Position numbers and translations under genes: made by a program. Positions 33,475 through 48,330 of a DNA stretch of 48,377 bases are shown piece after piece. Below the pieces are notes generated by a model. The model saw only the letters and a program-made list of their open reading frames with translations, was not told the origin of the DNA and ran no database searches. The stretch's first letter is position 1. Every line of letters starts with the position of its first letter. Source of the DNA: Candidatus Woesearchaeota archaeon (GTDB lineage Archaea; Nanobdellota; Nanobdellia; Woesearchaeales; UBA10216); assembly GCA_043807015.1 (NCBI GenBank), contig JAZDGJ010000043.1:1-48377 (forward strand). The letters are read 5' to 3'.

Positions 33475-34518
33475 TTACTCTTTGCTGTCCAAGAATACTT
33501 CATCACCGTTGCTTTCAAGCGATTTTTGCGCTGCCTCTAATGCCAGCATAACCTTGTAGCCAGAGTAGCCGTCGCTTAGCGGATTCCTGCCTGTTTTTAT
33601 GCACTCTATGAAGTGGCTGGAGACCTCTTTTAGAGGTTCCCTGTCGTCAATTTTTGGTATGTAAATGTCCCCTGAACGGTAAAGGAGCTGGAAGTCCCCG
33701 AAGCTTCCGTAATATTGCTGTGGGGGCAGCCCATGGTTTTCAATGCTCACGCCTTTGTCAAAAATCTTGATCTTCTCGCTTTGGCTCACATCGTCATACA
33801 CAAGCATCTTCTTGCTTCCTATAATCGTCATTTCCCTTATTTTTCTTGGGCTGAGCCAGCTTACATGAAGGTGTGCTGCCACGTTGTTTGGGAACTTAAG
33901 TATTACATGGGCAGTGTCCTGGTTGTTTGGCATGACATGAGATTCAGCAAAGGTCCTTGCAGAAATAGGCTCGCTTCCAAGGAGGAACCTAAGCATGGAA
34001 ATGTCATGCGGTGTGAGATCCCATAGGACATTAACATCTTTCTGAAAGAGCCCCAGATTTATCCTGGTGATGTGAATGTTGAAAATCTCACCAAGCTCCT
34101 TCTTGTCAATGATTTCCTTTATTTTTCTCACGCTTGTGGAATACTCGAAAGTATGGTCAACCATCAGGGTTTTACCAGCCTTTTTGGCTATTCTTGTAAG
34201 TTCAAGGGCTTCGCTGCTTGTTTTCGTTATCGGTTTTTCTACCAGTGTATGCTTTCCATGTTCAAGCGCCTGTTTCGCAAGCCCATAGTGCGTAGCCACA
34301 GGGGTTGCTATTACCACCCCATCAATGTCTGTTTTTAGGAGAGCTTCGTAGTCAGTAGTGGTTTTGACGTTGTGGAAGATGAGCTTCATCTGCTTCAGCC
34401 TTTCTTCATTAAGGTCACAGCACACAACCTCTTCAACTTCGATGTTTTGGGAGAAATTCCTTACAAGGTTTGGTCCCCAGTAGCCGCACCCAACAATCCC
34501 AATTTTATATTTCTGCAT
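33475..34518 (-). CDS. Gfo/Idh/MocA oxidoreductase (WbpB/WlbA-like)
   Basis: [25 protein letters not shown]. Confidence 0.9.
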
Positions 34519-34573
34519 GCCTTTTCAAGAAAAGGCGTATTAATAGCTGCTTAATAAAGCTTTTCTTGTTTTC

Positions 34574-34715
34574 GGGGATGTCACATAATTCGGCCGGCTG
34601 CGGTCGCAATGCGACTTCCCCCATTCCCGCCACAACTTAGTTAGGGCGGGAATAGGGGAACCCCAAGGAACTTGGGGCGCAGCCGGCTAGAAAAAAGGGT
34701 TTTCGCAACAACCCC
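34574..34715. mobile_element. MITE/REP-like four-way-junction element, copy 1 (142 bp)
   Basis: P1 34593-602/34678-87; P2 GTCGC-AAT-GCGAC; P3 34616-31/34645-60; P4 CCCCAAG-GAA-CTTGGGG; ends GGGGATGT/ACAACCCC; flanks CTTGTTTTC and CTTGTTTCC. The structure is seen; mobility is inferred. Confidence 0.55.
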
Positions 34716-34736
34716 CTTGTTTCCAGCTCTCTTCAA

Positions 34737-35447
34737 TCAAATTCTCTTCTTTTTCAGCCTATAGAAATATAATCTCAAAAGGCCGCCAAGGTAATTGGAG
34801 TATTCGCTCAGTCCTATCTTGCTCTTTCCCACAGTCCTGTTCCTGAAGGTGTAAGGCACCTCAATTGCTTTGCTATACCTTCCCTTTACAATGATCTCAA
34901 GCAGTATCTTGTAACCCCTTGTTTCAAGTTTCACGCCTTCTATTACTCTCCTCCTTGTGAAAAACAGTCCGCTCATGGGGTCTTTTATCCCTGTTAGCGG
35001 GTATGCCAGCAGCGTCGCTGCCTTGCTCATAAGTTTGCGGCTCAGCGGCCATACTTCAACCCCTCCGCCCTTTGCATGCCTGCTTCCAATCGTAAGGTCT
35101 GCTTTGTTCTCCAGTATTGGCCGTATCAGCAGCGGCAGCACCTCAGGGGGATGGCTCATGTCAGCATCCATTACTCCAAGTATGTCCCCCTTCGCTTCAG
35201 AGAACCCTGTTTTCACTGCAGAGGCAAGGTCAATTTTTTTGTTTCGCACAATCACCCGTACATTATACTTTTTGCCGAATGTCCTTGCTGCCTTTGCTGT
35301 TCCATCAGGAGAATTGTCATCAACAATCACAACCTCAATTTTTGCGCCAATTTTTTTGCAGCTCGCGAATATCTGGGGGATTAGCAGTTTTATATTCTCG
35401 CGCTCATTGTATGTAGGCACTATCAGTGAAACGGTTTTTCCCATCAT
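34737..35447 (-). CDS. Polyprenol/dolichol-phosphate mannose synthase (DPM1-like GT2)
   Basis: PTYNEREN, VDDNSPDGT, MDADMSHPP, DPMSG. Confidence 0.92.
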   Translation of the reverse strand: MMGKTVSLIVPTYNERENIKLLIPQIFASCKKIGAKIEVVIVDDNSPDGTAKAARTFGKKYNVRVIVRNKKIDLASAVKTGFSEAKGDILGVMDADMSHPPEVLPLLIRPILENKADLTIGSRHAKGGGVEVWPLSRKLMSKAATLLAYPLTGIKDPMSGLFFTRRRVIEGVKLETRGYKILLEIIVKGRYSKAIEVPYTFRNRTVGKSKIGLSEYSNYLGGLLRLYFYRLKKKRI

Positions 35448-35454
35448 GCCCTTC

Positions 35455-36123
35455 CTAATTTTTCCTTGCCACTATTATTATGTAAAAGAAATTGCCGTTT
35501 ATCTGCTCTGCTATTGAAAAGCCCCTTTTCTCAAAATCTTTACTTAGGCGTTTTGGCGAAAAATGGTTTATGTGCCCGCAGTTTCTCCTGTAAAGCTCCT
35601 TGTCCAGGAGGTATCCCTGGATAAAGCACTGCACTGCAAAAAGAGGCTTCCACAAGCTCAGGTTTGTGTCATAAGGAACCGTGACAATTGCAATGCCGCC
35701 TGGCTTCAGCACTCTTCGGATCTCTGCAATTGTGTCCGTGTAGTTCGGTATGTGCTCAAGAGTTTCTGTTGTGATTATTACGTCAACTGAGTTGCTTTTC
35801 AGCCCTGTCCTGTTGATGTCCTCTACCCTGTAATCTTTCAGCCGCCCTATTCTCTTGGCGTATTTGGGCATCTTTTCGTTTATGTCTATGCCTGTTACCG
35901 GCATGCCCCTTCTGTTCCAGTTGCAGGTTCCGCAGCCAAGGTCAACTATTTTTGCGCCCTTTGCAGTATACTTCCTTACAAGGCGGTCAACTGCGCTGTT
36001 GCTTGATCTGTGGAACCACGCCCTTATGGGGTTAAGGGAATTTGTTTGGTCATCGAAGAACTCATCTCCGAGGCCTTCATTTAGCTCAATCATGCGCCCA
36101 TATTCATTATCCTTTCCCCTCAT
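35455..36123 (-). CDS. Class I SAM-dependent methyltransferase
   Basis: VDLGCG, ETLEHI, RVLKPGG. Confidence 0.9.
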   Translation of the reverse strand: MRGKDNEYGRMIELNEGLGDEFFDDQTNSLNPIRAWFHRSSNSAVDRLVRKYTAKGAKIVDLGCGTCNWNRRGMPVTGIDINEKMPKYAKRIGRLKDYRVEDINRTGLKSNSVDVIITTETLEHIPNYTDTIAEIRRVLKPGGIAIVTVPYDTNLSLWKPLFAVQCFIQGYLLDKELYRRNCGHINHFSPKRLSKDFEKRGFSIAEQINGNFFYIIIVARKN

Positions 36124-38072
36124 TGCCCAACCTCATCACACTTCTCTAATGTCCCAGCATTTTTGGCAGTTAGCTCGAGCGTTATAAAGCTTTCTTTTTT
36201 TATTTCAGCATAGTTTTTGCATATGCCTTCTCCATAGCTTGCTCCTGACTTCAGCAGTAGCCAGGAGCCTTTTCCGGCAATAATCCCATATTGCTCATCG
36301 TTAAGCAGCTCATTTACATATCCGATAAATTCCTCTCCGGTGTATATCCCTTCTGTGGACGGCGTGAGGCTGAGCAGCACATAGTCTGCCGTTACCTTTT
36401 TTTCATCTGTGAGGTACCATGCCTTGTGGAAGGGGTTTGGAAAAACATATATCAGCTCCCTCTGGCTCAGGTGGGGAACTGCCGTGTTTGATGCTGAAAC
36501 AGAGGCGTTGGATGGTATCATTGCAGAAAGCTCCCTGGCGGCTTTTGCATCGCCTGAGTTAAAGTCATAGCTGCTGTACGAGAAATTCCTTGCTCCGGGC
36601 AGGGGACCGTAATAGTAAGCGCTGAAAACCGATGCCGAAAGAACTAATGCCATTATAGCTGCATTTGCCTGCAGTGCAGTTATTCCCCACTTCAGTTGGT
36701 GTGCCTCAAGCATTTTCCTTGCTCTTGAAAGCCCTGCTATCAAAGCCAGGAATATGAATGGTATTATATTGGCATTATAATGGAAGAATATTGAATGCAG
36801 CTGCGGCGCCTCGCTGAGCATGTTTATTGAGAAGGCGGGCAATGCCCAGACGAGCAGCTCAGGAGCTAGCAGTGACAAGCCGCCTGTAGGTAGTAGCATC
36901 ATCGCCAAGTAGGCAAGCCGCTCAGGGCTCGCAATGGCTGAAAGCGTGCCAATCGGGTTTAGCAGAGCGTTCTTCACCACCTCAAGCGGTGTGCTTCCAA
37001 GCGCCCCAAATCCGCTTACGCTGAATGTGCCCGCTTCTGAGAAATAAGGAATGAACAATTCTGTCGCAAACAGGAAGATTGCTGATGAAATGACTGCTGC
37101 AGCCATCCCGATTTTCCACCTTCGTTTTATTACTAAGGCATACAGCCCAAGTGCAACGCCTGCTATTGCTGCATCTTCCTTTATAAGCGCTGTAAGAACC
37201 GCCATAAGGAAGAAAAGCATCTCTTTTTTTCTCTCAAGGAAATAGAGCCCGAAAAGAATTGTTGTTACAGCAAAGCTCTCAATGTGGAAATCCTCAAGGG
37301 TGATGTAGTTCATTGCAGGATAAATAAGGTATGCTACAGCAACAACCAGCGCGGCTTTTCCACCAAGCTTGCTTTTGGCAAGTTTGAAGAGGGGCAAAAC
37401 GCCAGCTGCCATGACTAAGCACTGCAGCGCAAGCAGGAGCTCCACCTTTGGCGCAACCTTATAGAGCAGCGACAGAGGGAAGAACAGGAAGAAGGAGTGA
37501 TGAGCAAAAAGGTAATCGCCAACAACTGTGCTGAATATTACCTTGCCGTGTGCCAAGCCCCAAAGCGTCTGGTCAAATATGCCGAGGTCAAAACCCCTGG
37601 TATTAAATGCGTGATGTTTCGCAATGCTCATAGCTGCTAGACCTATCGCATAAGCAGCAGCCAGCACAAGCGCAATTTTGCTGCTCCTCTCGCCGACGTT
37701 CCGCGGTAGCCTGGCTGCAATCCTGTCTCTGAATTTCGCCAAGAAATATACCTTAAGCGCTACAAAAAAGCTAACTGAAACAGTCACCAAAAGAGCTCCT
37801 GGCAGGTATGCGAACCTTTCAAATTCCTGCGGCACCTTCACGAGAGCTGTGAGCGGCAGGAAAAAAAGCAGGGCAGCTGCAGCATACGTCTTTGCGTCAT
37901 CTTTCAAAACCCCTGCCAGCCGTGTTCCAGCAAGCCATGCAAACATTGCGGAGTAGCCGAGCCATGCCGCATATGGCCATGGCGAATTCAGCGCAAAAGC
38001 AGCCATTGTGACAATTAGGAAAGGCAATATAATGGCAGGTTGCCTTATTGTGCTGACGACTTTAGTAATCAC
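36120..38072 (-). CDS. DUF2079-like GT-C membrane protein
   Basis: FDLGIFDQ, HHS, DFH, KED, HY, PHLSQR..IY.FP. Confidence 0.8.
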   Translation of the reverse strand: MITKVVSTIRQPAIILPFLIVTMAAFALNSPWPYAAWLGYSAMFAWLAGTRLAGVLKDDAKTYAAAALLFFLPLTALVKVPQEFERFAYLPGALLVTVSVSFFVALKVYFLAKFRDRIAARLPRNVGERSSKIALVLAAAYAIGLAAMSIAKHHAFNTRGFDLGIFDQTLWGLAHGKVIFSTVVGDYLFAHHSFFLFFPLSLLYKVAPKVELLLALQCLVMAAGVLPLFKLAKSKLGGKAALVVAVAYLIYPAMNYITLEDFHIESFAVTTILFGLYFLERKKEMLFFLMAVLTALIKEDAAIAGVALGLYALVIKRRWKIGMAAAVISSAIFLFATELFIPYFSEAGTFSVSGFGALGSTPLEVVKNALLNPIGTLSAIASPERLAYLAMMLLPTGGLSLLAPELLVWALPAFSINMLSEAPQLHSIFFHYNANIIPFIFLALIAGLSRARKMLEAHQLKWGITALQANAAIMALVLSASVFSAYYYGPLPGARNFSYSSYDFNSGDAKAARELSAMIPSNASVSASNTAVPHLSQRELIYVFPNPFHKAWYLTDEKKVTADYVLLSLTPSTEGIYTGEEFIGYVNELLNDEQYGIIAGKGSWLLLKSGASYGEGICKNYAEIKKESFITLELTAKNAGTLEKCDEVGQ

Positions 38073-38168
38073 AGCCTTGGGCTTAATCTTTCACTTTAAA
38101 ATATTTACCGTTTGTTGAGCCCATTACTACTAAAAACGTTTTTAAATAGCCGCTCTTTTCCAAAGGGC

Positions 38169-38954
38169 GTGGCAGCCATCTATGTCTACAGGAAAGGCAG
38201 GCTCAAAAAGGAGCTGAAGGAGCTTTTTTCTGCCCACGAGTCGCTTGACGTTTCCGTTGTGCTTCCTACTTACAATGAGGAAGCGAATGTTAAGCGCCTT
38301 ATCAGCGAGCTCGGAAACGTGCTTAAGGGGTATGAGTATGAAATTGTCGTGGTGGACGACAACTCAAAAGACAAGACTCCTGAAATAATTGACAGGTATG
38401 CTGCAAAAGGCGTTGTTGCAGCACTGCACCGGTATGGCATAAGGGGCATATTTTCTGCAATAAATGACGGAATAAAAGTTGCTGAAGGCAAAACCGTTGT
38501 AATCATGGACGCGGACTTTTCCCATCCTCCGTCACTGCTGCCGCAGCTTCTTTCAAAAATTCCAGACTATGATGTTGTGTCAGGCTCCCGTTTCTGCAAG
38601 GGCGGTGGTATTAACGCGCCGAGCTTGAGAAAATTCAGCACGCTTGCCTTTAATACGGCGATAAGGTTCATCCTTGGCGCAAAAATCACTGACTGGACAG
38701 GCGGCTTCCATGCAATAAGGAAAGACGCCTATGAGCAGCTTAAATTCAAATACCCTGCAAGCTGGGGCGAGTTTGACCTTGAGCTGCTTTACAGGGCAAA
38801 AAAAGCAAAACTGAAGATTTTTGAAGTCCCGTTTGTCTACAACTTCCGCGAGGAAGGGGCGTCTAAATCAGCGGAGGGCTTTAGCTTCTTCTTCGGCTAT
38901 GCAATCAAATACGGATTGAGGGCGATAAGGCTGAGATTCTTTGACTGGCTGTAA
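38169..38954 (+). CDS. DPM1-like GT2 glycosyltransferase
   Basis: LPTYNEEAN, VDDNSKD, MDADFSHPP; GTG 38169 preferred because TTTAAATA lies at 38141. Confidence 0.88.
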   Translation: MAAIYVYRKGRLKKELKELFSAHESLDVSVVLPTYNEEANVKRLISELGNVLKGYEYEIVVVDDNSKDKTPEIIDRYAAKGVVAALHRYGIRGIFSAINDGIKVAEGKTVVIMDADFSHPPSLLPQLLSKIPDYDVVSGSRFCKGGGINAPSLRKFSTLAFNTAIRFILGAKITDWTGGFHAIRKDAYEQLKFKYPASWGEFDLELLYRAKKAKLKIFEVPFVYNFREEGASKSAEGFSFFFGYAIKYGLRAIRLRFFDWL

Positions 38955-38987
38955 AAATTTATAAATGAAGCACATAATCCTGTTGGG

Positions 38988-39482
38988 ATGCCTGAATTGA
39001 AATCCAAGCTGAATCTCGGTGCTGGAAAGGACATAAAGGAAGGATACCTCAACCTTGACATAGTTCCCCTTAAGGGAATAGACGTTGTCCATGACCTCAA
39101 CAAAATTCCGTATCCTTTTAGGGATAACCAATTTGAAGAAATCCTGTGCTTGAATGTCCTTGAACATCTGGATGACTTCCAGAAGGTCTTGGAGGAACTG
39201 CATAGGATTGGCTCGAATGGAGCAAGAGTAAAGATAGGCGTCCCATACTGGAACAGCCTTCTTGTTTGGGCTGACCCACAGCACAAAAGGGGCTTTACGC
39301 TGGACACTTTTACTTTCTTTGAAAAATCTCATTACTACAATTTCCGTTTTAAGGTTATCAAGCAGGAGTTGATAGGCTCAAAGGTTGGCAAATTGTTTCC
39401 AGGTCCCCTCCGCTACTTGCTTTCTTATTTTCTCTGTAACATCGTGGAAGGTATGCGCGTTGAGCTGGAAGTTGTGAAATAA
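38988..39482 (+). CDS. Small class I SAM-dependent methyltransferase
   Basis: KLNLGAG, VHDLN..PYPF.D, VLEHL, DPQH. Confidence 0.85.
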   Translation: MPELKSKLNLGAGKDIKEGYLNLDIVPLKGIDVVHDLNKIPYPFRDNQFEEILCLNVLEHLDDFQKVLEELHRIGSNGARVKIGVPYWNSLLVWADPQHKRGFTLDTFTFFEKSHYYNFRFKVIKQELIGSKVGKLFPGPLRYLLSYFLCNIVEGMRVELEVVK

Positions 39483-39538
39483 GCTGCTGCATTCGGCATG
39501 TGAAAACTTTATAAACCAGAGCCCTATTCTCCCTGGCA

Positions 39539-40633
39539 ATGAAATCCATACCTGTTGCAGAGCCTGATCTGAGGGGCAATGAAAGAAAATACGTTCTTGA
39601 CTGCCTTGATACAAACTGGGTTTCAAGCCTTGGCAAATACATCCCTTTGTTTGAGCAGAAATTCAGCGCCTACTGCAGCTGCAGCAATGGCGTAGCTGTG
39701 GCTAACGGCACCGTTGCCCTGCATCTCGCATTGGCTGCCCTAGGCATCGGCAAAGGCGATGAAGTCCTTGTTCCAGACCTGACATTTGTTGCAACGCCTA
39801 ATGCAGTGACCTATACTGGCGCAAAGACTGTGCTTGTTGATGCTGACCCTAAAGTCTGGAATATCGCTCCTGAAAAGATTGAGGAAAAAATCACTCCGAA
39901 CACAAAGGCAATAATCCCCGTCCACCTTTACGGGCATCCCTGCGACATGGAACCCATAATGAAGATTGCTGAAGAGCATAATCTCTTTGTGGTTGAGGAT
40001 TGCGCTGAAGCCCATGGCGCAGAATACCGCGGCAAAAAAGTTGGCAGCATTGGCGATGTTGGCTGCTTCAGCTTCTATGGCAACAAGATTCTTACAACGG
40101 GAGAGGGCGGGATGTGCACTACAGGAGATGAGGAGCTCGCGCAAAGGATGCGCCTGCTGAAAGACCACGGCATGGCTAAAAGGCGCTATTACCATCCTGA
40201 AATAGGCTTTAACTACCGCATGACCAACATACAGGCGGCAATTGGGCTTGCCCAGCTTGAAAGAATTGATGAGATTATTGCAATAAAGAGGAAGAATGCA
40301 ATGCTTTACAAAAAGTTCCTTGGCTCCTGCAAGGGCATAACCTTGCAGCCTGAAATGCCCTGGGCTAAAACTGTCTACTGGCTCCACTCCATCCTTGTGG
40401 AGAATGATTTCCGCTCAAACCGCGACCTGCTGATGCAGGAGCTGTCTGCAGAGGGAATTGACTCAAGGCCATTCTTCATCCCGATGCATGAGCTTCCGAT
40501 GTACAGGCAGGACGGCTTTCCTGTCGCCACAGAGCTTTCAACAAAAGGCATCAACCTGCCTTCTTCAACCTTGCTCACAGAAGATGACATTAAGATGATT
40601 TGCGGCGTGATCAGGAATGAAAAAATTCGTTGA
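39539..40633 (+). CDS. DegT-family aminotransferase (perosamine synthase-like)
   Basis: IPVAEP, NGTVALHL, EDCAEAHG, SFYGNKILTTGEGG, NYRMTNIQAA. Confidence 0.92.
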   Translation: MKSIPVAEPDLRGNERKYVLDCLDTNWVSSLGKYIPLFEQKFSAYCSCSNGVAVANGTVALHLALAALGIGKGDEVLVPDLTFVATPNAVTYTGAKTVLVDADPKVWNIAPEKIEEKITPNTKAIIPVHLYGHPCDMEPIMKIAEEHNLFVVEDCAEAHGAEYRGKKVGSIGDVGCFSFYGNKILTTGEGGMCTTGDEELAQRMRLLKDHGMAKRRYYHPEIGFNYRMTNIQAAIGLAQLERIDEIIAIKRKNAMLYKKFLGSCKGITLQPEMPWAKTVYWLHSILVENDFRSNRDLLMQELSAEGIDSRPFFIPMHELPMYRQDGFPVATELSTKGINLPSSTLLTEDDIKMICGVIRNEKIR

Positions 40634-41078
40634 TGAGATCCTCACTTATGACAGGATTCTGAAAGCATATCCCATTTACGGCACTTTGAGGAGATATTTC
40701 ATCTTCCTTCTCGGCGGCGGAACAGGGCTGCTCATAGCAGAGGTAACTACAACACTGCTTACTGAATCGTTCCAGTTATGGTATATGCTTTCTTACATAA
40801 TAGGCACAATACTGGCGATAATTTTCACTTTCATATACCACCGCTATGTTACCTTCAGGAAGTTCACAGACGTCAGAAAAAGGTTCGTTAAGTTCGTTTT
40901 TGTTGTTTCAATAATAGCTGTGGTAAATATAGCCCTGGTCTACTTGTCTACAGAGGCGGTTGCAGGATATTTTGGCACAGAGGTTACGAAGTTCTACTAC
41001 TGGGCCACAATCTTCATCGTTACCCTTGTGCTTTCAACAGTCAACTTTACTGTCAACAAACTGTGGGTGTTTAAGTAA
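40617..41078 (+). CDS. GtrA-family membrane protein
   Basis: 4 TM; F.YHRYVTF and NF..NKLWVF. Confidence 0.85.
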   Translation: MKKFVDEILTYDRILKAYPIYGTLRRYFIFLLGGGTGLLIAEVTTTLLTESFQLWYMLSYIIGTILAIIFTFIYHRYVTFRKFTDVRKRFVKFVFVVSIIAVVNIALVYLSTEAVAGYFGTEVTKFYYWATIFIVTLVLSTVNFTVNKLWVFK

Positions 41079-42670
41079 TGGATAGGAAAGACATCATTAC
41101 TCTAGCAGTTCTCTTCATAGCAGCCCTTTTCCTCTGGACCATGCCTTTCCAGCAAAACCGCCTGCCTTTCGGCGAAGGCGATTCTGCCTGGCATTTCTCA
41201 ATAGGCGACTACATGCACTCCTCAGACAGGGCAATTTCTAGGCTGCCGTTCTATGTCGGAGTCTGGTATTACAATTACAACAGCATTCTCGGTCCTTTTG
41301 CCCTTGAGTATCCTCCTGCAAACCACATGAATTATGCTTTTATGCAGTTCTTTGGCGACAGGTTTGTGTCTGTGCTGATGATTCGGGCTATAACAAGCTT
41401 CCTTGGAGTTTTTGCAACATATTTCCTGATAAGGAAGCTTTACGGCTTCCTCCCGGCAGCCATAGCCAGCCTTGCATTGGTATTCTCGCTCAGGGAGCAG
41501 ATGATTTATCTCTGGGGGCAGCAGCCTACGCTTTCCAGCTTCGTAATAATTCCCGTCCTTCTTTATTCATTCTACAAGTATGCAACATTGTTGTTTGAGG
41601 GTAAGCCAAGCAGCACTTACCTTTTCATTACAGCAGCGCTGATTGCCTCGCAATACATGCTCCACATTCAGGGCATAATAGTTTCTCTTCTTGCTATGGT
41701 GGTATTCTTTTTCTTCATGATTATAAGGCACAAAAGGCTTCCCATTTCCAAAAATACGGCTTTGCAGATTGGAATAGTGGTTCTTGCTCTCGTTGTGGTT
41801 ATGTTGCCGTTTGCAAACATTTACCTGGGCGCGCAGAGTGCTACAGCTCCCAGCAGCAAGCAGCCTTCAAGGCTGCTTCAGTGGACAGTCCCATCAGAGC
41901 CGATAAGCGGAAGTTTCCCTGCAGCTTTTGTGCAGTTCAGCTCTGAATACAGGTTCTGGATGCTTCCGTTAATTCTCCTTGGCGTGTTTTTCCTGCTTTT
42001 CAGGCGAGAGCCAAAAGACTTGCTGATGCTTGCATGGCTTGCTTCCATCTACATAACATTTCACCTTGATGTAATACTTGGCGCAGACTGGCTTGGCAGA
42101 ATTGCCAGGATGGGCGTTGCAGAGCCGCCGCTGTTCTTTTCGTTGATGGCTATCGGGTTATTCTCGATTTTTTCATTAATCAAAATTCCGTCGCAGCCAA
42201 GAATCCTTCTGAAGTATGCTGTGGCAATCGCAGTGGCAGTAATCCTTGTTTTCACTTTGGGAGCTGCTGCTAAGGAGAACCTAAGCCAGGCCTATGGTGG
42301 AATAGGCCGCATCACTCCCCAGCAGCTTGAGCTGGCAGAATGGCTGCACAGCAATACGGCAGAGAATTCAATGATCTATGACCTTGGGACATCTAGCTAT
42401 CCTAAAATTAGGTGGCTTTTGGCCTCTTCGCAAAGATACATTAACCAATACTACGGCTCTTTTGTGAACGCCTCCTATGCAAAGGACTCGCCGTCCTACT
42501 TTATTTTTGACTATTCTGACCTTCAGCTGCTTGTTAACTCACAATACCGCGACCAGTTCCTGCCACAGCTCAATCAGGCCCAGCAGGCTGAGCAGGCGAT
42601 GTTTGCAAACATCACTCCAGTCTATGATAAAAACAATATAAGGGTGTACAATGTTCAAGTTAGCAACTAG
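41078..42670 (+). CDS. GT-C-like membrane protein
   Basis: LPFGEGDSAWH..YPP..H, YLWGQQP; paralog of 44390-45979. Confidence 0.65.
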   Translation: MDRKDIITLAVLFIAALFLWTMPFQQNRLPFGEGDSAWHFSIGDYMHSSDRAISRLPFYVGVWYYNYNSILGPFALEYPPANHMNYAFMQFFGDRFVSVLMIRAITSFLGVFATYFLIRKLYGFLPAAIASLALVFSLREQMIYLWGQQPTLSSFVIIPVLLYSFYKYATLLFEGKPSSTYLFITAALIASQYMLHIQGIIVSLLAMVVFFFFMIIRHKRLPISKNTALQIGIVVLALVVVMLPFANIYLGAQSATAPSSKQPSRLLQWTVPSEPISGSFPAAFVQFSSEYRFWMLPLILLGVFFLLFRREPKDLLMLAWLASIYITFHLDVILGADWLGRIARMGVAEPPLFFSLMAIGLFSIFSLIKIPSQPRILLKYAVAIAVAVILVFTLGAAAKENLSQAYGGIGRITPQQLELAEWLHSNTAENSMIYDLGTSSYPKIRWLLASSQRYINQYYGSFVNASYAKDSPSYFIFDYSDLQLLVNSQYRDQFLPQLNQAQQAEQAMFANITPVYDKNNIRVYNVQVSN

Positions 42671-42671
42671 A

Positions 42672-42971
42672 ATGACTGCATTGGCGTGCTATGCCCTGGT
42701 GCTTTTGGCAGGCTACATGCTGTTCGGCATGACAGGAGCTGGCGTAATATTTGCAGCAGCGCTTTTCTTTGTTGTATCGCCTTATTTTATCCTCAGCAAG
42801 TTAAGGATTGAAGAAGACGAGAAATGGTTCTTCTCGCTCTTTATCGGGCTTGGCTTGTTTTCAACGCTTGTGTGGGCAGTTGGCAGGGTAATGTCCCTTA
42901 GGGTTGCGCTCATAGTTACCGTCCTGATTTTGGCAGCGGTATTTTTCTTTGTTAAGCGCAAGACTGCGTAA
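42672..42971 (+). CDS. Small 4-TM membrane protein (alternative start 42651)
   Basis: Hydrophobic ORF starting 1 nt after the upstream stop; EKWFFSLFIGLG. Confidence 0.7.
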   Translation: MTALACYALVLLAGYMLFGMTGAGVIFAAALFFVVSPYFILSKLRIEEDEKWFFSLFIGLGLFSTLVWAVGRVMSLRVALIVTVLILAAVFFFVKRKTA

Positions 42972-42974
42972 CTC

Positions 42975-43282
42975 GGGTCTGTCTTGAGTCCTTGTTTTTC
43001 TCTTGTTCGTGGCGGTCCGAGGGACTTGTTGCTTTCCCGTGACAGGCGCTCTGTCTACGCGCTTAAGCGGGACAACGCTCCTTCGGAGCTAAAGTCCCGC
43101 GAACCATACGACTCGTAACTAGTCGGCTTTAGCCCGCAGGCGTTGCCGGCTTAAGGTAAATTGTCGGGGTCTGCAATTTACCCGACAATTTAAGCCAGAC
43201 TTTGCTGGCAGCGGGAAGCAACAACCTGAGCGAACACGCCTGCGGGCTCAGGCGCCACGAACAATAGATTCGGGACAGAATC
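42975..43282 (+). ncRNA. Highly structured 308-nt element (four-way junction plus pseudoknot); ncRNA or MITE-like, copy 2 of the family
   Basis: P1 43003-14/43253-64; P2 GTCC-GAG-GGAC; P3 43026-39/43212-24; P4 43225-31/43246-52; 13-nt complement 43131-43/43236-48; outer stem 42978-90/43267-79 with 3 G-U pairs on the + strand. Confidence 0.6.
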
Positions 43283-43328
43283 CCATAACCCGCAACTTTT
43301 TTATAATCTGCCTGAGAATTCTTTCTGC

Positions 43329-44063
43329 ATGGGGCTTGCCAAGGCATACCTTTCCTACCTTTATGGGAATGTCACAAGAAGCTATGAAAAAGCCCTGATT
43401 TCTAGCCTTGAGAAAAACCCAAAAGCCATCCTTGTGGATGCAGGATGCTGGGACGGCGCAAACACGCTCAGGTTTGTGCAGGCTACAGGCGCAAAGGCAA
43501 TAGGGCTTGATTTGGTTGAAAGCGCTGTTGCGAGCACAAGGCGAAAAGGCATTGAGGCAATGGTTGCAGACCTCAACAAAAGAATCCCGCTGAAGGACTC
43601 AACTGCTGACGTTGTTATGGTAAACCACACTATAGAGCACCTTTACAACACAGCAGGCTTTGTCTCAGAAATTTACAGGATACTCAAGCCAGGGGGATAT
43701 GCTCTTATCGGCACTCCAAACCTCGCAAGCTGGCACAACATCTTTGCCCTGCTGCTGGGCAGACAGCCCTTCAGCGGTCCAACAATTGACCTGTCTGAAA
43801 AAAGCATGGTGTCTGGCATGAAGCAGGAAAAGAACAGGCGCCTGGTCTCAGGGCTTGGTTTGAAAGCAGAGGATGCACTGGGGCATATTGTTGTCATTGC
43901 ATACAAGACGCTGCTTAAGCTCCTAAGGTCAAAAGGCTTCATTGTTGAGAAGGCATATGGCTTTGGCTATTACCCATTGCCGCCCTTCATAGCAGGGCTT
44001 TTGGCTTCGCTTGATAAGAGCCACTCCCACTATGTGCTTGTCAAAGTCAGAAAGCCTGCTTAG
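43329..44063 (+). CDS. Class I SAM-dependent methyltransferase
   Basis: VDAGCWDG, DLN, TIEHL, RILKPGG...GTPNLASW; TATA at about 43299. Confidence 0.9.
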   Translation: MGLAKAYLSYLYGNVTRSYEKALISSLEKNPKAILVDAGCWDGANTLRFVQATGAKAIGLDLVESAVASTRRKGIEAMVADLNKRIPLKDSTADVVMVNHTIEHLYNTAGFVSEIYRILKPGGYALIGTPNLASWHNIFALLLGRQPFSGPTIDLSEKSMVSGMKQEKNRRLVSGLGLKAEDALGHIVVIAYKTLLKLLRSKGFIVEKAYGFGYYPLPPFIAGLLASLDKSHSHYVLVKVRKPA

Positions 44064-44418: not shown

Positions 44419-45979
44419 GGTTGTTTTTGACTATGCTTACAATGCTGTTGCTGTAGACTTCTTCTCCGTGCATAAGGAGCTTTTCCCTTATTGCAAGGTT
44501 GTATTGCACGAGCGGAGACATCTGCGAATATGCTGTCTTTGTGTCAAATACAAAGTAGTCTTTTGAGCATATGCTTGCGTTTTGCTCCCAGGTCATGTTG
44601 CCGGTATGGAAGCCGAATGAGAACAGCCCTTTTTTGTAAGGGAAGCCTGCGCCAGAGTCAGAGGCAAGCATGGATTCATATCTCTCCCTTATTGTGTTGT
44701 TCATCAAGCCCTTAATGTAATCATCTGTGTTGACTATTGTTGAAAGCCTGCCGGTGTTGTAAAGCATTGATGTCTGCGAGTATATGTCGCCGTAGAAGAA
44801 ATAAACTGTTGAGCCTTCAGGAGTGTTCCTGCTCAGCCATTGCAGCCCAGCCCACCTGCTCTGGTCCATCATTCCCTGGCTCTGCCCCATCATCTGGCTT
44901 GTTGAAGCAACAGCAACCGACAATATCAGCGCAGCCGCCACTGAAATTGCCAGCCTGAATCTTTTTGCAAAAAGGCTTGCCACGGCAGAAAAGCCCAGCC
45001 CGAAAAATACAGCGAGATAAACCGGCCAGAAAAACCTTGTCTGGAAAGCCCTGAAGCTCATGCCAACGTAATTTGTCATCCCTGCCAGAAACATGTATGC
45101 AGAGAACGCCACGGGAAGTTTTCTTGCGGCAAGCAGCGCGATAACAGCACCAATGGCAATAATTATTGCCGCCCAGCTGAAATGGCTCAGCATTATTGTC
45201 GGGAAGCTTTCCGTTGTTCTCTCAACCTGGAACAGGTTATACTTCTGGAACCTTGCCCAGGTGCCCTGGAATATCAGCAAATAATAGCCTGCCGAAACTA
45301 CTGCCGTCAATGCCAAAGCAAGCAGTTCCTTGACTTCCCTCCAGTCCTTCATCAACAGCTTTGCCGCCCCGTAGATTGAAAAAAATCCTATTAGGAAAAT
45401 CATTTCCGACGTATGCGTCATGCCGACCGCTGCCATGAATATTCCTGAAAAAAGCCACCAGAGCCTTCCCTTCACCACAAGCGCCCACACTGCTGCAACG
45501 AGGAAAACATGCGATGCCGCAGAGGGCCACTGCCCCCACAGGTATGCTGCAGTGAATGGCGCTGAGAAGAGGAAAACAAAGAGCGGTATGCCCAGTATTG
45601 CGGCATTTGAATTGAAGTGTTTTATAACGAGATACATTGCCGCTGCAGCCAGCACTGCTGAAAGGAACACAATAAAATAAATTGTGTCATAAGTCTGGAG
45701 ACCTGTCACGTTTGAAAGCAGTGCTGAAAGGTGGTAAAGCAGCGGCGGGTAAAACCCAACCACGTCGGTGAATCCGTTGACGATATAAGGCGCTTCATGG
45801 GCATAACCGCCCATCTCCTTTATTGATTCAGCCCTCGCCTGGTGCTGGAAGGCGTCGCTTGCGCCCAGACCGTATGGAAAGCCGTGCTCAATCTCGTGCC
45901 CCCACAACGCGCCGATTCCAAACCACAGAAGCAGGAAGATAATTGCAGGAATTATTATTGTGTCGCGGTCTAGTTTCAT
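44390..45979 (-). CDS. GT-C-like membrane protein
   Basis: FPYGLGASDAFQH..YPPLLYH, YLWGQWP; paralog of 41078-42670. Confidence 0.65.
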   Translation of the reverse strand: MKLDRDTIIIPAIIFLLLWFGIGALWGHEIEHGFPYGLGASDAFQHQARAESIKEMGGYAHEAPYIVNGFTDVVGFYPPLLYHLSALLSNVTGLQTYDTIYFIVFLSAVLAAAAMYLVIKHFNSNAAILGIPLFVFLFSAPFTAAYLWGQWPSAASHVFLVAAVWALVVKGRLWWLFSGIFMAAVGMTHTSEMIFLIGFFSIYGAAKLLMKDWREVKELLALALTAVVSAGYYLLIFQGTWARFQKYNLFQVERTTESFPTIMLSHFSWAAIIIAIGAVIALLAARKLPVAFSAYMFLAGMTNYVGMSFRAFQTRFFWPVYLAVFFGLGFSAVASLFAKRFRLAISVAAALILSVAVASTSQMMGQSQGMMDQSRWAGLQWLSRNTPEGSTVYFFYGDIYSQTSMLYNTGRLSTIVNTDDYIKGLMNNTIRERYESMLASDSGAGFPYKKGLFSFGFHTGNMTWEQNASICSKDYFVFDTKTAYSQMSPLVQYNLAIREKLLMHGEEVYSNSIVSIVKNNLVEGDCLEI

Positions 45980-48330
45980 TTTATCAGCCTTAACACAGCA
46001 TCTGCAAACGCCTTTACATCGCCTTCTTTTACAAGGATGCCGTTCTTCACAACCTCTGGATGGCTGCCGACGTCAAAAGCCACAACTTTCTTGCCGACTG
46101 CCTGTGCTTCGCAATTGTGGACGGCTCCCTGCATCGTAACATAAGTGTTGTCTGCCTTCACATGCAGGTTATAAACATCGCCATTGTACCGTTCTTTGCT
46201 TATTTTCCTAATCATTGCATATAAGTGCTTTTTATCTAGCCAGTAGTGGTTATGCGATGATCTCTCTCTGTTCCCCCTGCACACAGCACCCATTAATGCG
46301 CAAAAATATTTCTTTTGTTCTCCAGTGATGTCCAAAGTATATTCTTCCTTTCCTCTTCTCCTGTTCGTTTTGATGTTTGATATTGCGCCGACACTTAGCA
46401 ACAGGTCTTTTAGCTGTTCAGCTAGTTTCGGCGAGGAAGTGCTATAAGAAACGATCGTATTCTCATTTTTGTCCGCATATATCGTGCCGTCGCCCCTCCA
46501 TAGTCCTTTGAGCAGCTCTATCGCTTCTTTTTTTGGTCTGCACATCAACTTAGAATCAATGTGTTTGTTCTTCGCGCCTTTTCCAAAGAGCGATGAAAAG
46601 AACATATTCAGAATCTGCGAGCTGTAAGTTATCCTGCAGCCGTTTCCGTTAATTTCCTTGCTTCCGCTAATGCCGAATATTTTCTCCATCAGATAAAGTA
46701 CATCGTTTTGGTAAGCCGTTTCCTTTGAATTAAATGAAAAGCAGAGTGTTGTTTTTGAAGTTGGAGAGCAACCTTCTGACAGGTAGTATCCGGCAAGTCT
46801 CATAAATTTGCGGTTAATCCTTATTTTATTCGGCAATGATAACTTTTTTCTCAGCTCATAAGCCATTGCTTTCAGTTGATCTCCGATTTTTCTACAGGTC
46901 TCTGCCGATAGCTCTGAAGTTTTGTTGAGGTAGCGGTATATGGCGTTTTTGCTCATGCCCATTGAGCGTCCAAGCTTTTCATATGTGTCTTTGCCTTTTT
47001 CAGCCAATCTGCTATATTTGTAATAGACACGCCCGCCCTTCATCTCTATTCCGGTTACATAATCACTAATTTTTAAAAAGTTGCTTCGTCCATTATGATT
47101 GTAGTTGCCATAAGGATAAATCAGCGCATACCCCTTTTCAAGATCTTTTGCCTCAATCCATTCTGGCTTATAGCTTGCATAATGCCTTTTTTTGCAGGGG
47201 CAATCTGGCTTGCATATCTTATTTGTTTTACATCTCTTTGTACGAATCGCATAAACCCTATGTTCCGGCGTTATTCTCAGGGGGCTATTGCAGCCATATA
47301 CGCTGATATTCAGCAGGTTCCCCGCATAATGCCTTTTTGTGGCTGAATTTATTTCTCGTTCATTACCTTTGTGGGTTGTGACTTTTTCCCCGATTTGTAA
47401 CGAGATTATATCCTTGAACCCTTGATCTGTTTTTATTTTTGAGTCAGGAGTGAGACAGATCGGCATATTAAAACCCTCCCACAGTGATGCGGTAACGTAA
47501 AGGTCGCAAGCATTGTAGTAGTGGGGCAAATCCTCGTCTGGAATGAATCCTGTGAATATTACTCCGCCGTTGTCCAGCTTTTCAAGCTCTTTTGAATACG
47601 AATCAAACGTGTGCTTTCCAATAACAAGCAGTTTTGCCTTCGGAAATTTCCTCCTCACAATGTTGAAAGCCCTTATCAGGAGATGGATTCCTTTGTGGGG
47701 CGAAATCCTGCCGACGTAAAGCAGTGTTGGCTTGCCAAGCCCGTATTTTTTCCTCACCGCTTCAGTCTTTTTTTCGTCAACGTTTAAGTTGAACCTGCTG
47801 CGGTCTATTTTCACGTATTTTACCCTGCTCCGGAGCCCTGTTTCTTTTTTCAATTCATTGCTGAGGAACCTGCTTATTGAGATTGCATCGTCTGCATTTT
47901 TTACTGTGATTTTGGTGAAGAAATTTATCAGCTTCATCGCTGTCCTTTCAGCAAAGCCCCTGAACAGCTTCGGGTAAGCAAGCCCAACGTCATAGTAAGT
48001 GTAGTGCTTGCCGTATCGCTTTTTCGCAAGCCACGCAGGAATCGTCATTGGGTACAGGAAGCAGATAATCCAGTCATAGCCCTTGAGCATCTTTGCAATC
48101 TTTTCAACCTTTGGAACATCCATGAAGAAGAAAATCTTGTAAATCCTCTCCAGAGTCTTGTTCTTAGGCGCGCCAAACTCAAAGACGCCTGCTTTGGGAT
48201 GATTCATGTCTGCCTTGAAGCAGAAAACGCTGACTTCATTGTTTTCTGAAAGCTCGTCTGCCTCATTCCAGGCAACCCTGTCAGGACCGCTGAATGCAGA
48301 GAACGTCGGCGTGAGTATTGCTATTTTCAT
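45976..48330 (-). CDS. GT4 glycosyltransferase interrupted by an intein (336-aa extein)
   Basis: YVGRISPHKG; removing aa 292-739 gives SLWEGFNMPICEAQAVGKKVV. Confidence 0.93.
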   Translation of the reverse strand: MKIAILTPTFSAFSGPDRVAWNEADELSENNEVSVFCFKADMNHPKAGVFEFGAPKNKTLERIYKIFFFMDVPKVEKIAKMLKGYDWIICFLYPMTIPAWLAKKRYGKHYTYYDVGLAYPKLFRGFAERTAMKLINFFTKITVKNADDAISISRFLSNELKKETGLRSRVKYVKIDRSRFNLNVDEKKTEAVRKKYGLGKPTLLYVGRISPHKGIHLLIRAFNIVRRKFPKAKLLVIGKHTFDSYSKELEKLDNGGVIFTGFIPDEDLPHYYNACDLYVTASLWEGFNMPICLTPDSKIKTDQGFKDIISLQIGEKVTTHKGNEREINSATKRHYAGNLLNISVYGCNSPLRITPEHRVYAIRTKRCKTNKICKPDCPCKKRHYASYKPEWIEAKDLEKGYALIYPYGNYNHNGRSNFLKISDYVTGIEMKGGRVYYKYSRLAEKGKDTYEKLGRSMGMSKNAIYRYLNKTSELSAETCRKIGDQLKAMAYELRKKLSLPNKIRINRKFMRLAGYYLSEGCSPTSKTTLCFSFNSKETAYQNDVLYLMEKIFGISGSKEINGNGCRITYSSQILNMFFSSLFGKGAKNKHIDSKLMCRPKKEAIELLKGLWRGDGTIYADKNENTIVSYSTSSPKLAEQLKDLLLSVGAISNIKTNRRRGKEEYTLDITGEQKKYFCALMGAVCRGNRERSSHNHYWLDKKHLYAMIRKISKERYNGDVYNLHVKADNTYVTMQGAVHNCEAQAVGKKVVAFDVGSHPEVVKNGILVKEGDVKAFADAVLRLIK
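46114..47457 (-). mobile_element. Intein with LAGLIDADG homing endonuclease (448 aa)
   Basis: Block A CLTPDSKI, block B ITPEHRV, LAGYYLSEG and LKGLWRGDG, block F VYNLHV, C-terminal VHN followed by +1 Cys. Confidence 0.95.

What the first reader, a model, noticed from the sequence alone, without database searches (positions are those of the whole stretch)
34574..43282. Two intergenic elements share a perfect four-way junction with an identical core but unrelated arms: candidate new structured DNA/RNA family
Seen: copy 1 reads GCCGGCTGCG|GTCGC-aat-GCGAC|TTCCCC...GGGGAA|CCCCAAG-gaa-CTTGGGG|CGCAGCCGGC (34593-34687). Copy 2 reads TTGTTCGTGGCG|GTCC-gag-GGAC|TTGTTGC...GCAACAA|CCTGAGC...GCTCAGG|CGCCACGAACAA (43003-43264). 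Both have four helices with no unpaired bases at the junction and the same core GCG|GTC..GAC|TT..AA|CC..GG|CGC. That is 10 independent positions, about 4^-10 for a fixed register. Outer arms differ in sequence and length (95 vs 262 nt) yet stay paired, like compensatory change. Several loops are 3 nt (AAT, GAA, GAG, TTC), more typical of ssDNA hairpins than RNA. Inference: a protein (transposase, resolvase, HUH enzyme or RNA-binding factor) recognises a Holliday-junction-like fold by its core. I do not recognise the family.
Basis: partly seen in the sequence, partly recalled or inferred. Interest (0 to 1): 0.9.

Follow-up and report, generated by a model that had tools for sequence, protein, structure and literature searches.

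The report
Four-way-junction mobile repeats near archaeal promoters
The two elements are copies of a small mobile DNA repeat of a tiny-genome archaeal lineage whose middle folds into a perfect four-armed junction, and which lands about 14 bases upstream of gene promoters.

Summary
Both elements belong to one repeat family. It has about 30 loci in this 1.1-Mb genome and occurs in 16 of 25 genomes of the same family. It is patchy elsewhere in the order and was not found outside it. The ~95-nt core keeps a perfect four-way junction: 47 of 62 parsed copies have no unpaired base there. Junction base pairs are nearly invariant (G|GT..AC|T..A|CC..GG|C), while the arms change by paired substitutions (97% Watson-Crick; 58% with shuffled partners). 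No Rfam family or tRNA matches.

It is not a free-standing RNA or DNA gene. The core sits inside ~142-154-bp miniature transposons (MITEs). These have GG-started terminal inverted repeats like the IS6/IS26 consensus and 8-9-bp target duplications (35 of 87 copies). Window copy 1 is 34574-34715. Copy 2 is a short type-B copy with other repeats nested in arms 3 and 4.

Pairing is strictly Watson-Crick and strand-symmetric. Loops and cores occur flipped, and a quarter of copies lie between divergent genes. All this favours a DNA-level structure.

New: 23 of 35 copies end 13-17 nt from a TATA-like box (control 3-4.5%). What the junction does remains inferred.

The parts
34565..34573 (.). Copy 1: left target-site duplication CTTGTTTTC
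   Evidence: Matches 34716-34724 at 8 of 9 positions.
34574..34592 (+). Copy 1: left terminal inverted repeat and spacer of the MITE (GGGGATGTCAC...)
   Evidence: Matches the reverse complement of the right end at 8 of 12 positions. The same frame flanks copies L063, L085 and L089 in relatives.
34593..34687 (+). Copy 1: four-way-junction core. Outer stem 34593-34602 with 34678-34687; arm 2 34603-34615; arm 3 34616-34660; arm 4 34661-34677.
   Evidence: Minimum-energy fold with no unpaired base at the junction. Model R1 scores 88.9 bits, E 1.5e-18. Coordinates.
34697..34715 (-). Copy 1: right terminal inverted repeat (reverse complement GGGGTTGTTGCGAAAACCC)
   Evidence: It resembles the IS6/IS26 consensus printed in PMC6807381.
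34716..34724 (.). Copy 1: right target-site duplication CTTGTTTCC
34551..34558 (-). A/T-rich TATA-like box 15 nt outside the left end of copy 1, upstream of the gene 33475-34518 (-), which is transcribed away from the element
   Evidence: Read from the sequence; ORF. It is looser than the strict motif counted. A second candidate box lies at 34538-34545.
42975..43002 (+). Copy 2: left frame with a degenerate inverted repeat (GGGTCTGTC...)
   Evidence: The same frame flanks type-B copies C64, C68, C45, C17 and C11. It resembles the ends of a full insertion sequence in relative G025.
43003..43264 (+). Copy 2: type-B four-way-junction core. Outer stem 43003-43014 with 43253-43264; arm 2 43015-43025; arm 3 43026-43224; arm 4 43225-43252.
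   Evidence: The outer stem and arms 2-4 match short type-B copies.
43040..43211 (+). Nested repeat modules that replace the tip of arm 3 of copy 2, including a hairpin module at 43158-43191
   Evidence: Parts of this stretch recur on their own at C47:30088-30165, C70:3866-3931, C35:6117-6188, C56:15549-15613, C40, C69, C5, C28 and C42.
43265..43284 (-). Copy 2: right frame with inverted repeat (reverse complement GGGATTCTGTCCCGAATCTA)
   Evidence: The target duplication is only approximate (6 of 8).
43297..43306 (+). TATA-like box TTTTTTATAA, 13-17 nt outside the right end of copy 2 and 22 nt before the ATG of gene 43329-44063 (+)
   Evidence: Sequence; ORF.

Best explanation
[quoted passage not shown] The host is a Woesearchaeota-like DPANN archaeon. 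Each element is about 142-154 bp. It has GG-started terminal inverted repeats of the IS6/IS26 style, a short spacer, and a ~95-bp core of nested inverted repeats, and it makes an 8-9-bp target duplication. A DDE transposase supplied in trans moves it. Insertion is aimed about 14 bp upstream of the TATA box of a gene that reads away from the element. Folded as a single strand, or extruded from the duplex, the core gives a perfect four-way junction. This is a DNA-level feature, not an RNA gene.

Shown: family membership, mobility marks, conservation of the junction, compensatory arm changes, and the promoter-proximal position.

Inferred: why the junction is kept. My best guess is selection on the element's own propagation. 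A fold-back or hinge could bring the two ends of a very short element together, or stabilise a strand-transfer or circular intermediate. Template-switch correction of quasi-palindromes would help keep the arms perfectly paired.
For: Family: model R1 finds 32 distinct loci in the own genome. Four more type-B copies with large insertions or a deletion are seen only by BLAST and nhmmer. R1 hits 16 of 25 genomes of the same family. R2 hits 5 of 149 genomes of other families in an order sample. It also hits f44 (3 of 16) and f131 (1 of 2) in a phylum sample, and nothing outside the order.

Structure: 47 of 62 parsed copies have no unpaired junction base. Junction positions are 44-47 of 47 invariant. 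The 26 junction-anchored pairs are 97.0% Watson-Crick, against a mean of 57.7% (maximum 62.9%) with shuffled partners, and most positions show 3-4 pair types. On relatives only, 95.2% of cells pair against 72.2% shuffled and at most 55.4% slid. There, 31 of 34 pairs change on both sides, and 0 of 500 shuffles reach the observed values.

Mobility: 35 of 87 copies have an exact 8-mer or at least 8-of-9 target duplication plus inverted ends (examples). The inverted repeats fit the IS6/IS26 consensus and its conserved G1, G2 and G7 (PMC6807381). IS6-type DDE genes (PF13610) occur in 12 of 26 family genomes, with 3 loci in the own genome. A complete insertion sequence in G025 has an 8-bp duplication and ends like the frame of copy 2. 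An own-genome ORF is 36% identical to its transposase.

DNA level: G-T and A-C mismatches are balanced, 15 against 12 and 55 against 47. The arm-3 loop occurs in both orientations within one subtype. Copies show no orientation bias, and 8 of 32 lie between divergent genes. Copy 2's junction is the minimum-energy fold only with DNA parameters.

Target: 23 of 35 copies have a TATA-like box 13-17 nt from one end, against 2.7% and 4.5% of random intergenic positions. In 11 of 12 cases with long flanks an outward ORF follows that box.
Against: No autonomous element with matching ends was found in the own genome.

Across the 25 family genomes, presence of the IS6-type transposase does not track presence of the element. 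It is found in 7 of 16 genomes with the element and 4 of 9 without (my tally).

The junction is not obligatory for elements with the same ends. G015 carries 130-134-bp copies with only a long hairpin. G010 and G013 carry ~160-bp copies with another core. G011, G012 and G020 share a 51-bp mini-element. So a strict need for the junction in transposition is unlikely.

Transposase-bearing loci contain no junction: 15 loci, 41,027 bases, best E 3.

Perfect pairing and flipped loops could come from template switching without any selection. Expression could not be tested. The genomes are metagenome assemblies, and kin are not independent. Of the 87 copies, 52 lack a detected duplication.
Confidence: 0.75

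Rival explanations
1. The junction has no function. It is inherited from one ancestral MITE. Replication template switching then keeps its arms perfectly complementary by copying one arm from the other and occasionally flipping loops. The 'covariation' would be a mutational signature.
For: Pairing is strictly Watson-Crick with very few, strand-symmetric wobbles. Loops and cores are found in both orientations. MITEs with the same ends exist without the junction.
Against: Junction-flanking base pairs are 44-47 of 47 invariant, while neighbouring stem positions show 3-4 pair types. Arm lengths are tightly kept (arm 3 is 40-45 nt). The architecture survives across several families of the order. 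A pure mutational bias would not protect particular positions.
Confidence: 0.2
2. It is a host-level cis element upstream of promoters. The cruciform-prone core would absorb negative supercoils or bind a regulator or chromatin protein. It would so insulate or tune the neighbouring promoter, and the host would keep it for that reason.
For: It lies at a fixed position about 14 bp upstream of TATA boxes of outward-reading genes. Eight of 32 copies sit between divergent genes, where negative supercoiling accumulates (the supercoiling point is general knowledge).
Against: The fixed distance is measured from the target duplication, so it reflects the choice of insertion site and not a later function. 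Insertion sites differ between genomes. No binding protein is known and no expression data exist.
Confidence: 0.12
3. It is a structured RNA: a small RNA gene family, or a cis-acting RNA element such as a transcript stabiliser, spread by the transposon.
For: Predicted folds on either strand are very stable. Other structured mobile repeats are transcribed (bcr1, ERIC; PMC3184786).
Against: No Rfam match at gathering thresholds and only chance-level hits at E up to 10. No tRNA. G-U pairs are no more common than A-C mismatches. There is no orientation bias, and a quarter of copies lie between divergent genes, where no neighbour reads through. The adjacent TATA box drives a gene that reads away. 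Copy 2's junction is not the RNA minimum-energy fold.
Confidence: 0.07
4. It is a folded single-strand DNA site for an HUH enzyme (REP/RAYT or IS200/IS605-like) or a Holliday-junction mimic cut by a resolvase.
For: The hairpin loops are short (3 nt). The junction is perfect. An Hjc resolvase gene is present in the genome.
Against: Terminal inverted repeats and 8-9-bp duplications are not made by HUH transposition (established knowledge of those families). No Y1 transposase and no TnpB were found in the 92%-complete genome. Hjc is a housekeeping enzyme of archaea.
Confidence: 0.04

Closest known systems
bcr1 repeats of the Bacillus cereus group, as described in Delihas 2011 (PMC3184786; passages read)
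   Same: A mobile intergenic repeat of about 155 bp, flanked by short direct repeats. It has a cruciform-like fold with independent stem-loops kept by compensatory base changes.
   Different: bcr1 is bacterial, has 5-bp direct repeats, is reported as transcribed and is interpreted at the RNA level. Here the host is archaeal, the ends are IS6-style inverted repeats with 8-9-bp duplications, the junction is perfect with no unpaired bases and has conserved junction pairs, pairing is strand-symmetric, and the element sits at a fixed distance from TATA boxes. Sequence homology to bcr1 was not tested because no bcr1 sequence was at hand.
IS6/IS26-family insertion sequences and their MITEs (MITEBth2 and MITEHarch3 are named in PMC6807381; passages read)
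   Same: GG-started inverted repeats close to the family consensus printed in that paper, an 8-bp target duplication, and IS6-type DDE genes (PF13610) in the same genomes.
   Different: [quoted passage not shown] The one complete element found (G025) also scores on the Mutator/IS256 model and has a SWIM finger. One frame resembles the IS256 inverted repeat printed in PMC4045577. No conserved four-way core or promoter-distance targeting appeared in the passages I read.
Structured bacterial MITEs and REP-type repeats (Correia/nemis, ERIC, BOX, Nezha, Chunjie; PMC3184786)
   Same: Short, non-coding, intergenic and multi-copy, with very stable predicted folds and a modular or nested make-up (BOX-like).
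   Different: Those fold as simple or imperfect hairpins. None is described there as a perfect four-helix junction with invariant junction pairs conserved across an order.
Ty3 retrotransposon targeting of RNA polymerase III promoters through TFIIIB (recalled; no paper read here)
   Same: Insertion at a fixed short distance from a TBP-bound promoter element, a 'safe haven' strategy in a compact genome.
   Different: Ty3 is a eukaryotic LTR retroelement with an integrase. Here the element is a DDE DNA transposon of archaea. Any contact with TBP or TFB is pure inference.

Membership tests
MITE (non-autonomous DDE transposon) | Terminal inverted repeats | tested here: met
   35 of 87 copies have at least 7 of 12 matching terminal bases next to a duplication. 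Four frame types were seen.
MITE (non-autonomous DDE transposon) | Target-site duplication of fixed length | tested here: met
   8-9 bp, exact or at least 8 of 9, in 35 of 87 copies. Copy 1 matches 8 of 9. Copy 2 is only approximate (6 of 8, read by eye).
MITE (non-autonomous DDE transposon) | Small, non-coding, multi-copy, at unrelated loci | tested here: met
   Mostly 142-154 bp. About 30 loci in the own genome, all intergenic by a crude ORF map.
MITE (non-autonomous DDE transposon) | An autonomous element with the same ends | tested here: inconclusive
   The frame of copy 2 resembles the ends of a complete insertion sequence with an 8-bp duplication in G025. None was found for the other frames or in the own genome.
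IS6/IS26 family derivative | 14-bp inverted-repeat consensus with G1, G2 and G7, plus an 8-bp duplication | tested here: met
   The C16 copy ends GGCTCTGTTGAAAAT and GGCACTGTTGAAAAT match 12 of 14 positions of the consensus printed in PMC6807381. Other frames are looser.
IS6/IS26 family derivative | Co-occurrence with an IS6-type transposase | tested here: not met
   PF13610 is present in 7 of 16 family genomes with the element and 4 of 9 without. The assemblies are incomplete.
Any Rfam RNA family (including tRNA, SRP, RNase P, and the hairpin and twister-sister ribozymes with four-way junctions) | Score at or above the family's gathering threshold | tested here: not met
   0 matches in the window. 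Only chance-level microRNA and sRNA hits at E up to 10. ARAGORN finds 0 genes.
REP/RAYT or IS200/IS605 (HUH, single-strand DNA) | Y1 transposase or TnpB in the genome; no inverted ends or duplications | tested here: not met
   PF01797 gave 0 matches and PF07282 gave 0 matches in the own genome. Inverted repeats and duplications are present.
bcr1-like structured mobile repeat | Sequence homology to bcr1 | not tested
   No bcr1 sequence was fetched. The likeness is of kind only.
Functional structured RNA (generic) | Excess of G-U over A-C in helices and a preferred transcribed strand | tested here: not met
   G-T 15 against A-C 12, and 55 against 47. In tandem contexts 7 copies have the same orientation as their neighbours and 10 the opposite.

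The most novel reading that the evidence does not exclude
The transposase of these elements is steered to a fixed spot about 14 bp upstream of the TATA box by the TBP/TFB-bent promoter. That would be an archaeal counterpart of Ty3-TFIIIB targeting. In addition, the perfect four-way core would be a Holliday-junction-like DNA structure read through its invariant junction base pairs by an element or host protein (transposase, Hjc or a chromatin protein) during transposition or resolution. This would be a structure-dependent step not known for DDE transposons.
Probability: 0.15. Interest if true: 0.85.

Novelty: new variant of a known kind. Interest (0 to 1): 0.6.

Why it matters
DPANN archaea have tiny, gene-dense genomes, yet this one carries dozens of nested small repeats. 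The family shows three things. First, a mobile element can keep a precise four-helix architecture over order-level divergence. Second, that architecture behaves as DNA and not as RNA. Third, the elements sit at a fixed distance from archaeal core promoters. This third point suggests promoter-guided 'safe-site' insertion in archaea, which I did not find in print. It gives a testable system for target choice by IS6-like transposases and for cruciform biology in archaea. It also gives a practical marker: models R1 and R2 can annotate these repeats and avoid calling them RNA genes.

Tried and rejected
Rfam at gathering and at E up to 10 and ARAGORN found nothing meaningful. My first guess, that copy 2 was SRP or RNase P RNA and copy 1 a tRNA-like gene, is therefore rejected.

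The ISL3 reading of the ends is dropped. PF01610 is in only 2 of 26 genomes, both at contig ends and with different ends. The IS256/Mutator model PF00872 scored in 1 of 26 genomes. That hit led to the G025 element, which scores better on the IS6-type model.

The search for junction halves at the ends of transposase genes found none. The search for ends like the own frames around 15 transposase loci gave only one weak lead (L104), which did not hold up.

An exact-pattern scan of one-genome-per-species contigs with the arm-3 tip gave 0 hits; the own genome is left out of that scan.

No RNA holder was listed for the window stretch. Read laying was therefore not used, and expression remains untested.

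No structure prediction, complex prediction or large protein search was needed.

The supplementary tables of PMC11602168 (candidate MITE lists, including a Woesearchaea genome with 105 candidates per Mb) could not be seen. They may already list these elements as unnamed candidates.

Full report
WHAT IS THERE. It has an outer stem of 10 bp, arm 2 of 5 bp with a 3-nt loop, a long arm 3 and arm 4 of 7 bp with a 3-nt loop. No base is unpaired at the junction. The energy is -70.5 kcal/mol, z -8.3, and 0 of 200 shuffles fold as well. The complementary strand folds as well or better. Copy 2 (43003-43264) is equally exceptional: -138.2 kcal/mol, z -8.9. Its four-way junction lies 6.3 kcal/mol above the minimum with RNA parameters, but it is the minimum with DNA parameters. 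Rfam has no match at gathering scores. At E up to 10 only chance-level microRNA and sRNA hits appear. ARAGORN finds no tRNA.

IT IS A REPEAT FAMILY. The window is contig C43 of a 1.116-Mb, 70-contig, 92%-complete genome with 45% G+C. Copy 1 has six near-full-length relatives at 77-86% identity. Copy 2 matches other places piecewise, like a mosaic. nhmmer gave 36 non-overlapping loci. Of 21 canonical candidates, 19 fold as a four-way junction, and 16 of these have no unpaired junction base. By outer stem they fall into subtypes A to E. Copy 1 is type A and copy 2 is type B.

Short type-B copies of about 95 nt (C24:18021-18115, C11:26390-26488) have the same outer stem and arms 2 and 4 as copy 2. 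Copy 2 differs in two ways. The tip of its arm 3 is replaced by about 170 nt of other repeat modules that also occur alone elsewhere. The loop of its arm 4 carries a ~14-nt insert also seen in copies on contigs C17, C20, C28 and C45.

A covariance model from 19 own copies (A1, R1) finds 32 distinct loci in the genome. Five nearly identical type-C copies lie at or near contig ends, so the true number of loci is about 30.

CONSERVATION. R1 hits 16 of 25 other genomes of the same family. With stricter filters it hits 0 of 35 genomes of other families. The relatives' copies keep the junction while all arms differ in sequence. Of the best hits, 16 of 18 parse as a four-way junction, and 30 of 40 further copies do so.

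Over 62 parsed unique copies, 47 have no unpaired junction base. In these 47 the first pair of arm 2 is G-C in 47 and its second pair is T-A in 44. Arm 3 opens with T-A in 47. Arm 4 opens with C-G in 44 and then C-G in 47. The outer stem closes with G-C in 45. Arm 3 is 40-45 nt long.

I also counted outward from the junction without any alignment, in a slightly wider set of 49 copies with a perfect junction. The 26 pair positions are 97.0% Watson-Crick, and most show 3-4 pair types. Dealing the 3' partners among copies gives 57.7% (maximum 62.9% in 200 shuffles).

On an alignment of relatives only (A3; 52 distinct rows, 3 of them reverse-strand hits), 95.2% of cells pair. Shuffled partners give 72.2% and slid partners at most 55.4%. 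There, 31 of 34 pairs change on both sides, and 0 of 500 shuffles reach the observed values.

A broader model, R2, finds the family in 5 of 149 genomes of other families in an even sample of the order: G086, G097, G102, G112 and the unpublished G156. It also finds it in families f44 (3 of 16) and f131 (1 of 2) of a phylum sample, with no hit outside the order in those searched. Five of six copies inspected from G086, G097 and G112 show the same junction letters; the G102 copy (L115) keeps a perfect four-way junction but with different junction letters. A close relative of a window protein is titled a Candidatus Woesearchaeota MAG, and an archaeal Hjc gene is present. The host is therefore a DPANN archaeon.

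IT IS A TRANSPOSON CORE. Type-C copies align beyond the core up to 15-bp inverted repeats (GGCGCTATTGAAAAG) and are flanked by exact 8-bp direct repeats. An automatic scan of 87 copies (29 own, 58 from relatives) found a duplication (8 of 8, or at least 8 of 9) next to inverted ends (at least 7 of 12) in 35. Element lengths are mostly 142-154 bp. I estimate well under one such hit by chance.

At least four frames of ends carry the same kind of core. Copy 1 is a complete element at 34574-34715, with duplications at 34565-34573 and 34716-34724 matching 8 of 9. Its frame is shared with L063, L085 and L089. Copy 2 has degenerate ends (42975-43002 and 43265-43284) of the type-B frame, whose C64 member has an exact GGAAGAGC duplication.

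The ends match the IS6/IS26 consensus and its conserved G1, G2 and G7, and the 8-bp duplication fits that family (PMC6807381, passages; PMC8477213, passages). One frame resembles the IS256/Tn4001 inverted repeat printed in PMC4045577. IS6-type DDE genes (PF13610) occur in 12 of 26 family genomes, with three loci in the own genome. ISL3 occurs in 2 of 26 and IS256/Mutator in 1 of 26.

One complete insertion sequence in G025 (L097 25-2597) has an 8-bp duplication and ends like the type-B frame. Its 397-aa transposase scores on PF13610 (1e-11) and more weakly on PF00872, and has a SWIM finger. The own ORF C36:45872-47017 is 36% identical to it.

No Y1/HUH transposase and no TnpB are found in the own genome.

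Against a tidy story, no autonomous partner with matching ends is found in the own genome. Transposase presence does not track element presence (7 of 16 against 4 of 9). The transposase loci hold no junction.

DNA OR RNA. G-T wobbles are as rare as A-C mismatches: 15 against 12 in junction-anchored stems, and 55 against 47 over whole arms. A folded RNA under selection would be expected to show many more G-U pairs.

The 11-nt loop of arm 3 occurs in both orientations within one subtype. By eye, the core is flipped relative to its asymmetric frame between copies. Such inversions are DNA events between inverted repeats.

All 32 own copies examined are intergenic. Eight lie between divergent genes, 4 between convergent genes and 17 in tandem contexts (7 in the same orientation as their neighbours, 10 opposite). 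Three lie at contig ends. No RNA run holds the region (no evidence either way). I conclude that the structure is a property of the DNA.

WHERE THEY LAND. This was seen in passing and then tested. In 23 of the 35 elements with clear ends, a TATA-like heptamer lies 13-17 nt outside one end, and never at both ends. Random intergenic positions of the own genome give 2.7% with a 50-nt margin from ORFs, or 4.5% with no margin (binomial p 5e-28 and 4e-23). The control comes from one genome, whereas 25 of the 35 elements are from relatives.

In 11 of 12 cases with long flanks, an ORF of at least 60 aa reads away from the element. Its ATG lies 23-38 nt past that box in 10 cases and 64 nt past it in one. 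So the elements sit just upstream of the BRE/TATA of an outward-reading gene.

Both window copies obey the rule. Copy 2 ends 13-17 nt before TTTTTTATAA (43297-43306), which is 22 nt before the ATG at 43329. Copy 1 begins 15 nt from an A/T-rich box (34551-34558), on the side of the gene that starts at 34518 on the minus strand. The G025 insertion sequence lies 18 nt from TTTATAAA, upstream of a sequence I judge by eye to be tRNA-like.

The sharp distance, measured from the duplication, argues for target choice and not for survival of harmless insertions. Whether TBP or TFB guides it is inference.

WHAT THE JUNCTION IS FOR. This is not shown. The invariant junction pairs, the fixed arm lengths and the survival of the architecture across several families argue for constraint. 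Because subfamilies with different ends all keep it, the constraint most plausibly acts on the element's own spread.

However, elements with the same ends exist without it. G015 has copies with only a long hairpin. G010 and G013 have copies with another core. G011, G012 and G020 share an identical 51-bp mini-element. So the junction cannot be strictly required. Template-switch correction of quasi-palindromes could explain the perfect pairing and the flips without selection.

My odds are as follows. MITE identity: about 0.9. A role of the fold in propagation: about 0.35. By-product: about 0.2. Promoter-side host function: about 0.12. RNA: about 0.07. HUH or resolvase site: about 0.04.

COMPARISON AND NOVELTY. 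The closest known kind is the structured mobile repeat. The best example is Bacillus bcr1: ~155 bp, direct repeats, and a cruciform-like fold kept by compensatory changes (PMC3184786, passages). A survey noted that a Woesearchaea genome is among the archaea densest in candidate MITEs (PMC11602168, passage). Its supplements could not be seen.

Five full-text searches listed no paper on a MITE with a four-way junction, or on archaeal elements placed at a fixed distance from TATA boxes. I read only listings and the cited passages. I therefore rate it a new variant of a known kind, with a possibly new targeting behaviour.

Noticed in passing
35 elements in the own genome and relatives; in the window 34551-34574 and 43284-43306: The MITE ends lie 13-17 nt from a TATA-like box in 23 of 35 elements, against 2.7-4.5% of random intergenic positions. 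The gene behind that box reads away from the element in 11 of 12 cases. This suggests insertion aimed just upstream of archaeal core promoters.
   Followed up: yes
window 43040-43211, and genome loci C40:9188-9260, C35:6117-6188, C56:15549-15613, C47:30088-30165, C70:3866-3931: Several other short hairpin repeat modules are scattered through the genome. They are found nested in the loops of the four-way elements (arm 2 of C44:17294-17437; arm 4 of C16:15631-15782). Their own ends and duplications were not worked out.
   Followed up: partly
G020:C24:456-506, G020:C26:5343-5393, G020:C39:24723-24773, G011:C10:72342-72392, G012:C30:17202-17252: The 51-bp span between the two searched end motifs (the full ends were not delimited) is letter-identical in three genomes of two genera. 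G023 holds a variant with paired changes. This points to recent transfer or strong constraint.
   Followed up: no
G015, e.g. C14:1260-1391 and C8:153483-153614: About 26 weak model hits in G015 are 130-134-bp elements with the same ends but only a long central hairpin. Arms 2 and 4 are missing, so this is a junction-less sister lineage.
   Followed up: partly
genome contig ends C13:7863-7960, C15:32612-32709, C26:22329-22426, C44:15-112: Identical type-C copies sit at four contig ends, so these repeats break the assembly. The flanks of C15 and C26 share the duplication GTCCGCAG and probably join.
   Followed up: partly
genome C49:4467-4593: A chimeric copy: the 5' half (inverted repeat and outer strand) is type C and the 3' outer strand is type A. 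This suggests recombination between subfamilies.
   Followed up: no
genome C13:5286-5307: A 22-nt palindrome made of two abutting type-B-style ends with nothing between them. It could be an empty frame or a minimal element.
   Followed up: no
window 45976-48330 (-): A GT4 glycosyltransferase gene is interrupted by an intein with a LAGLIDADG homing-endonuclease domain (Pfam hits). It lies within a long cluster of glycosylation genes.
   Followed up: no
genome C16:13013-13906 and C21:989-1870: Two IS6-type DDE ORFs share 80% DNA identity over 778 bp, but the similarity stops at the gene. No inverted ends were found, so they may be domesticated or decayed copies.
   Followed up: partly
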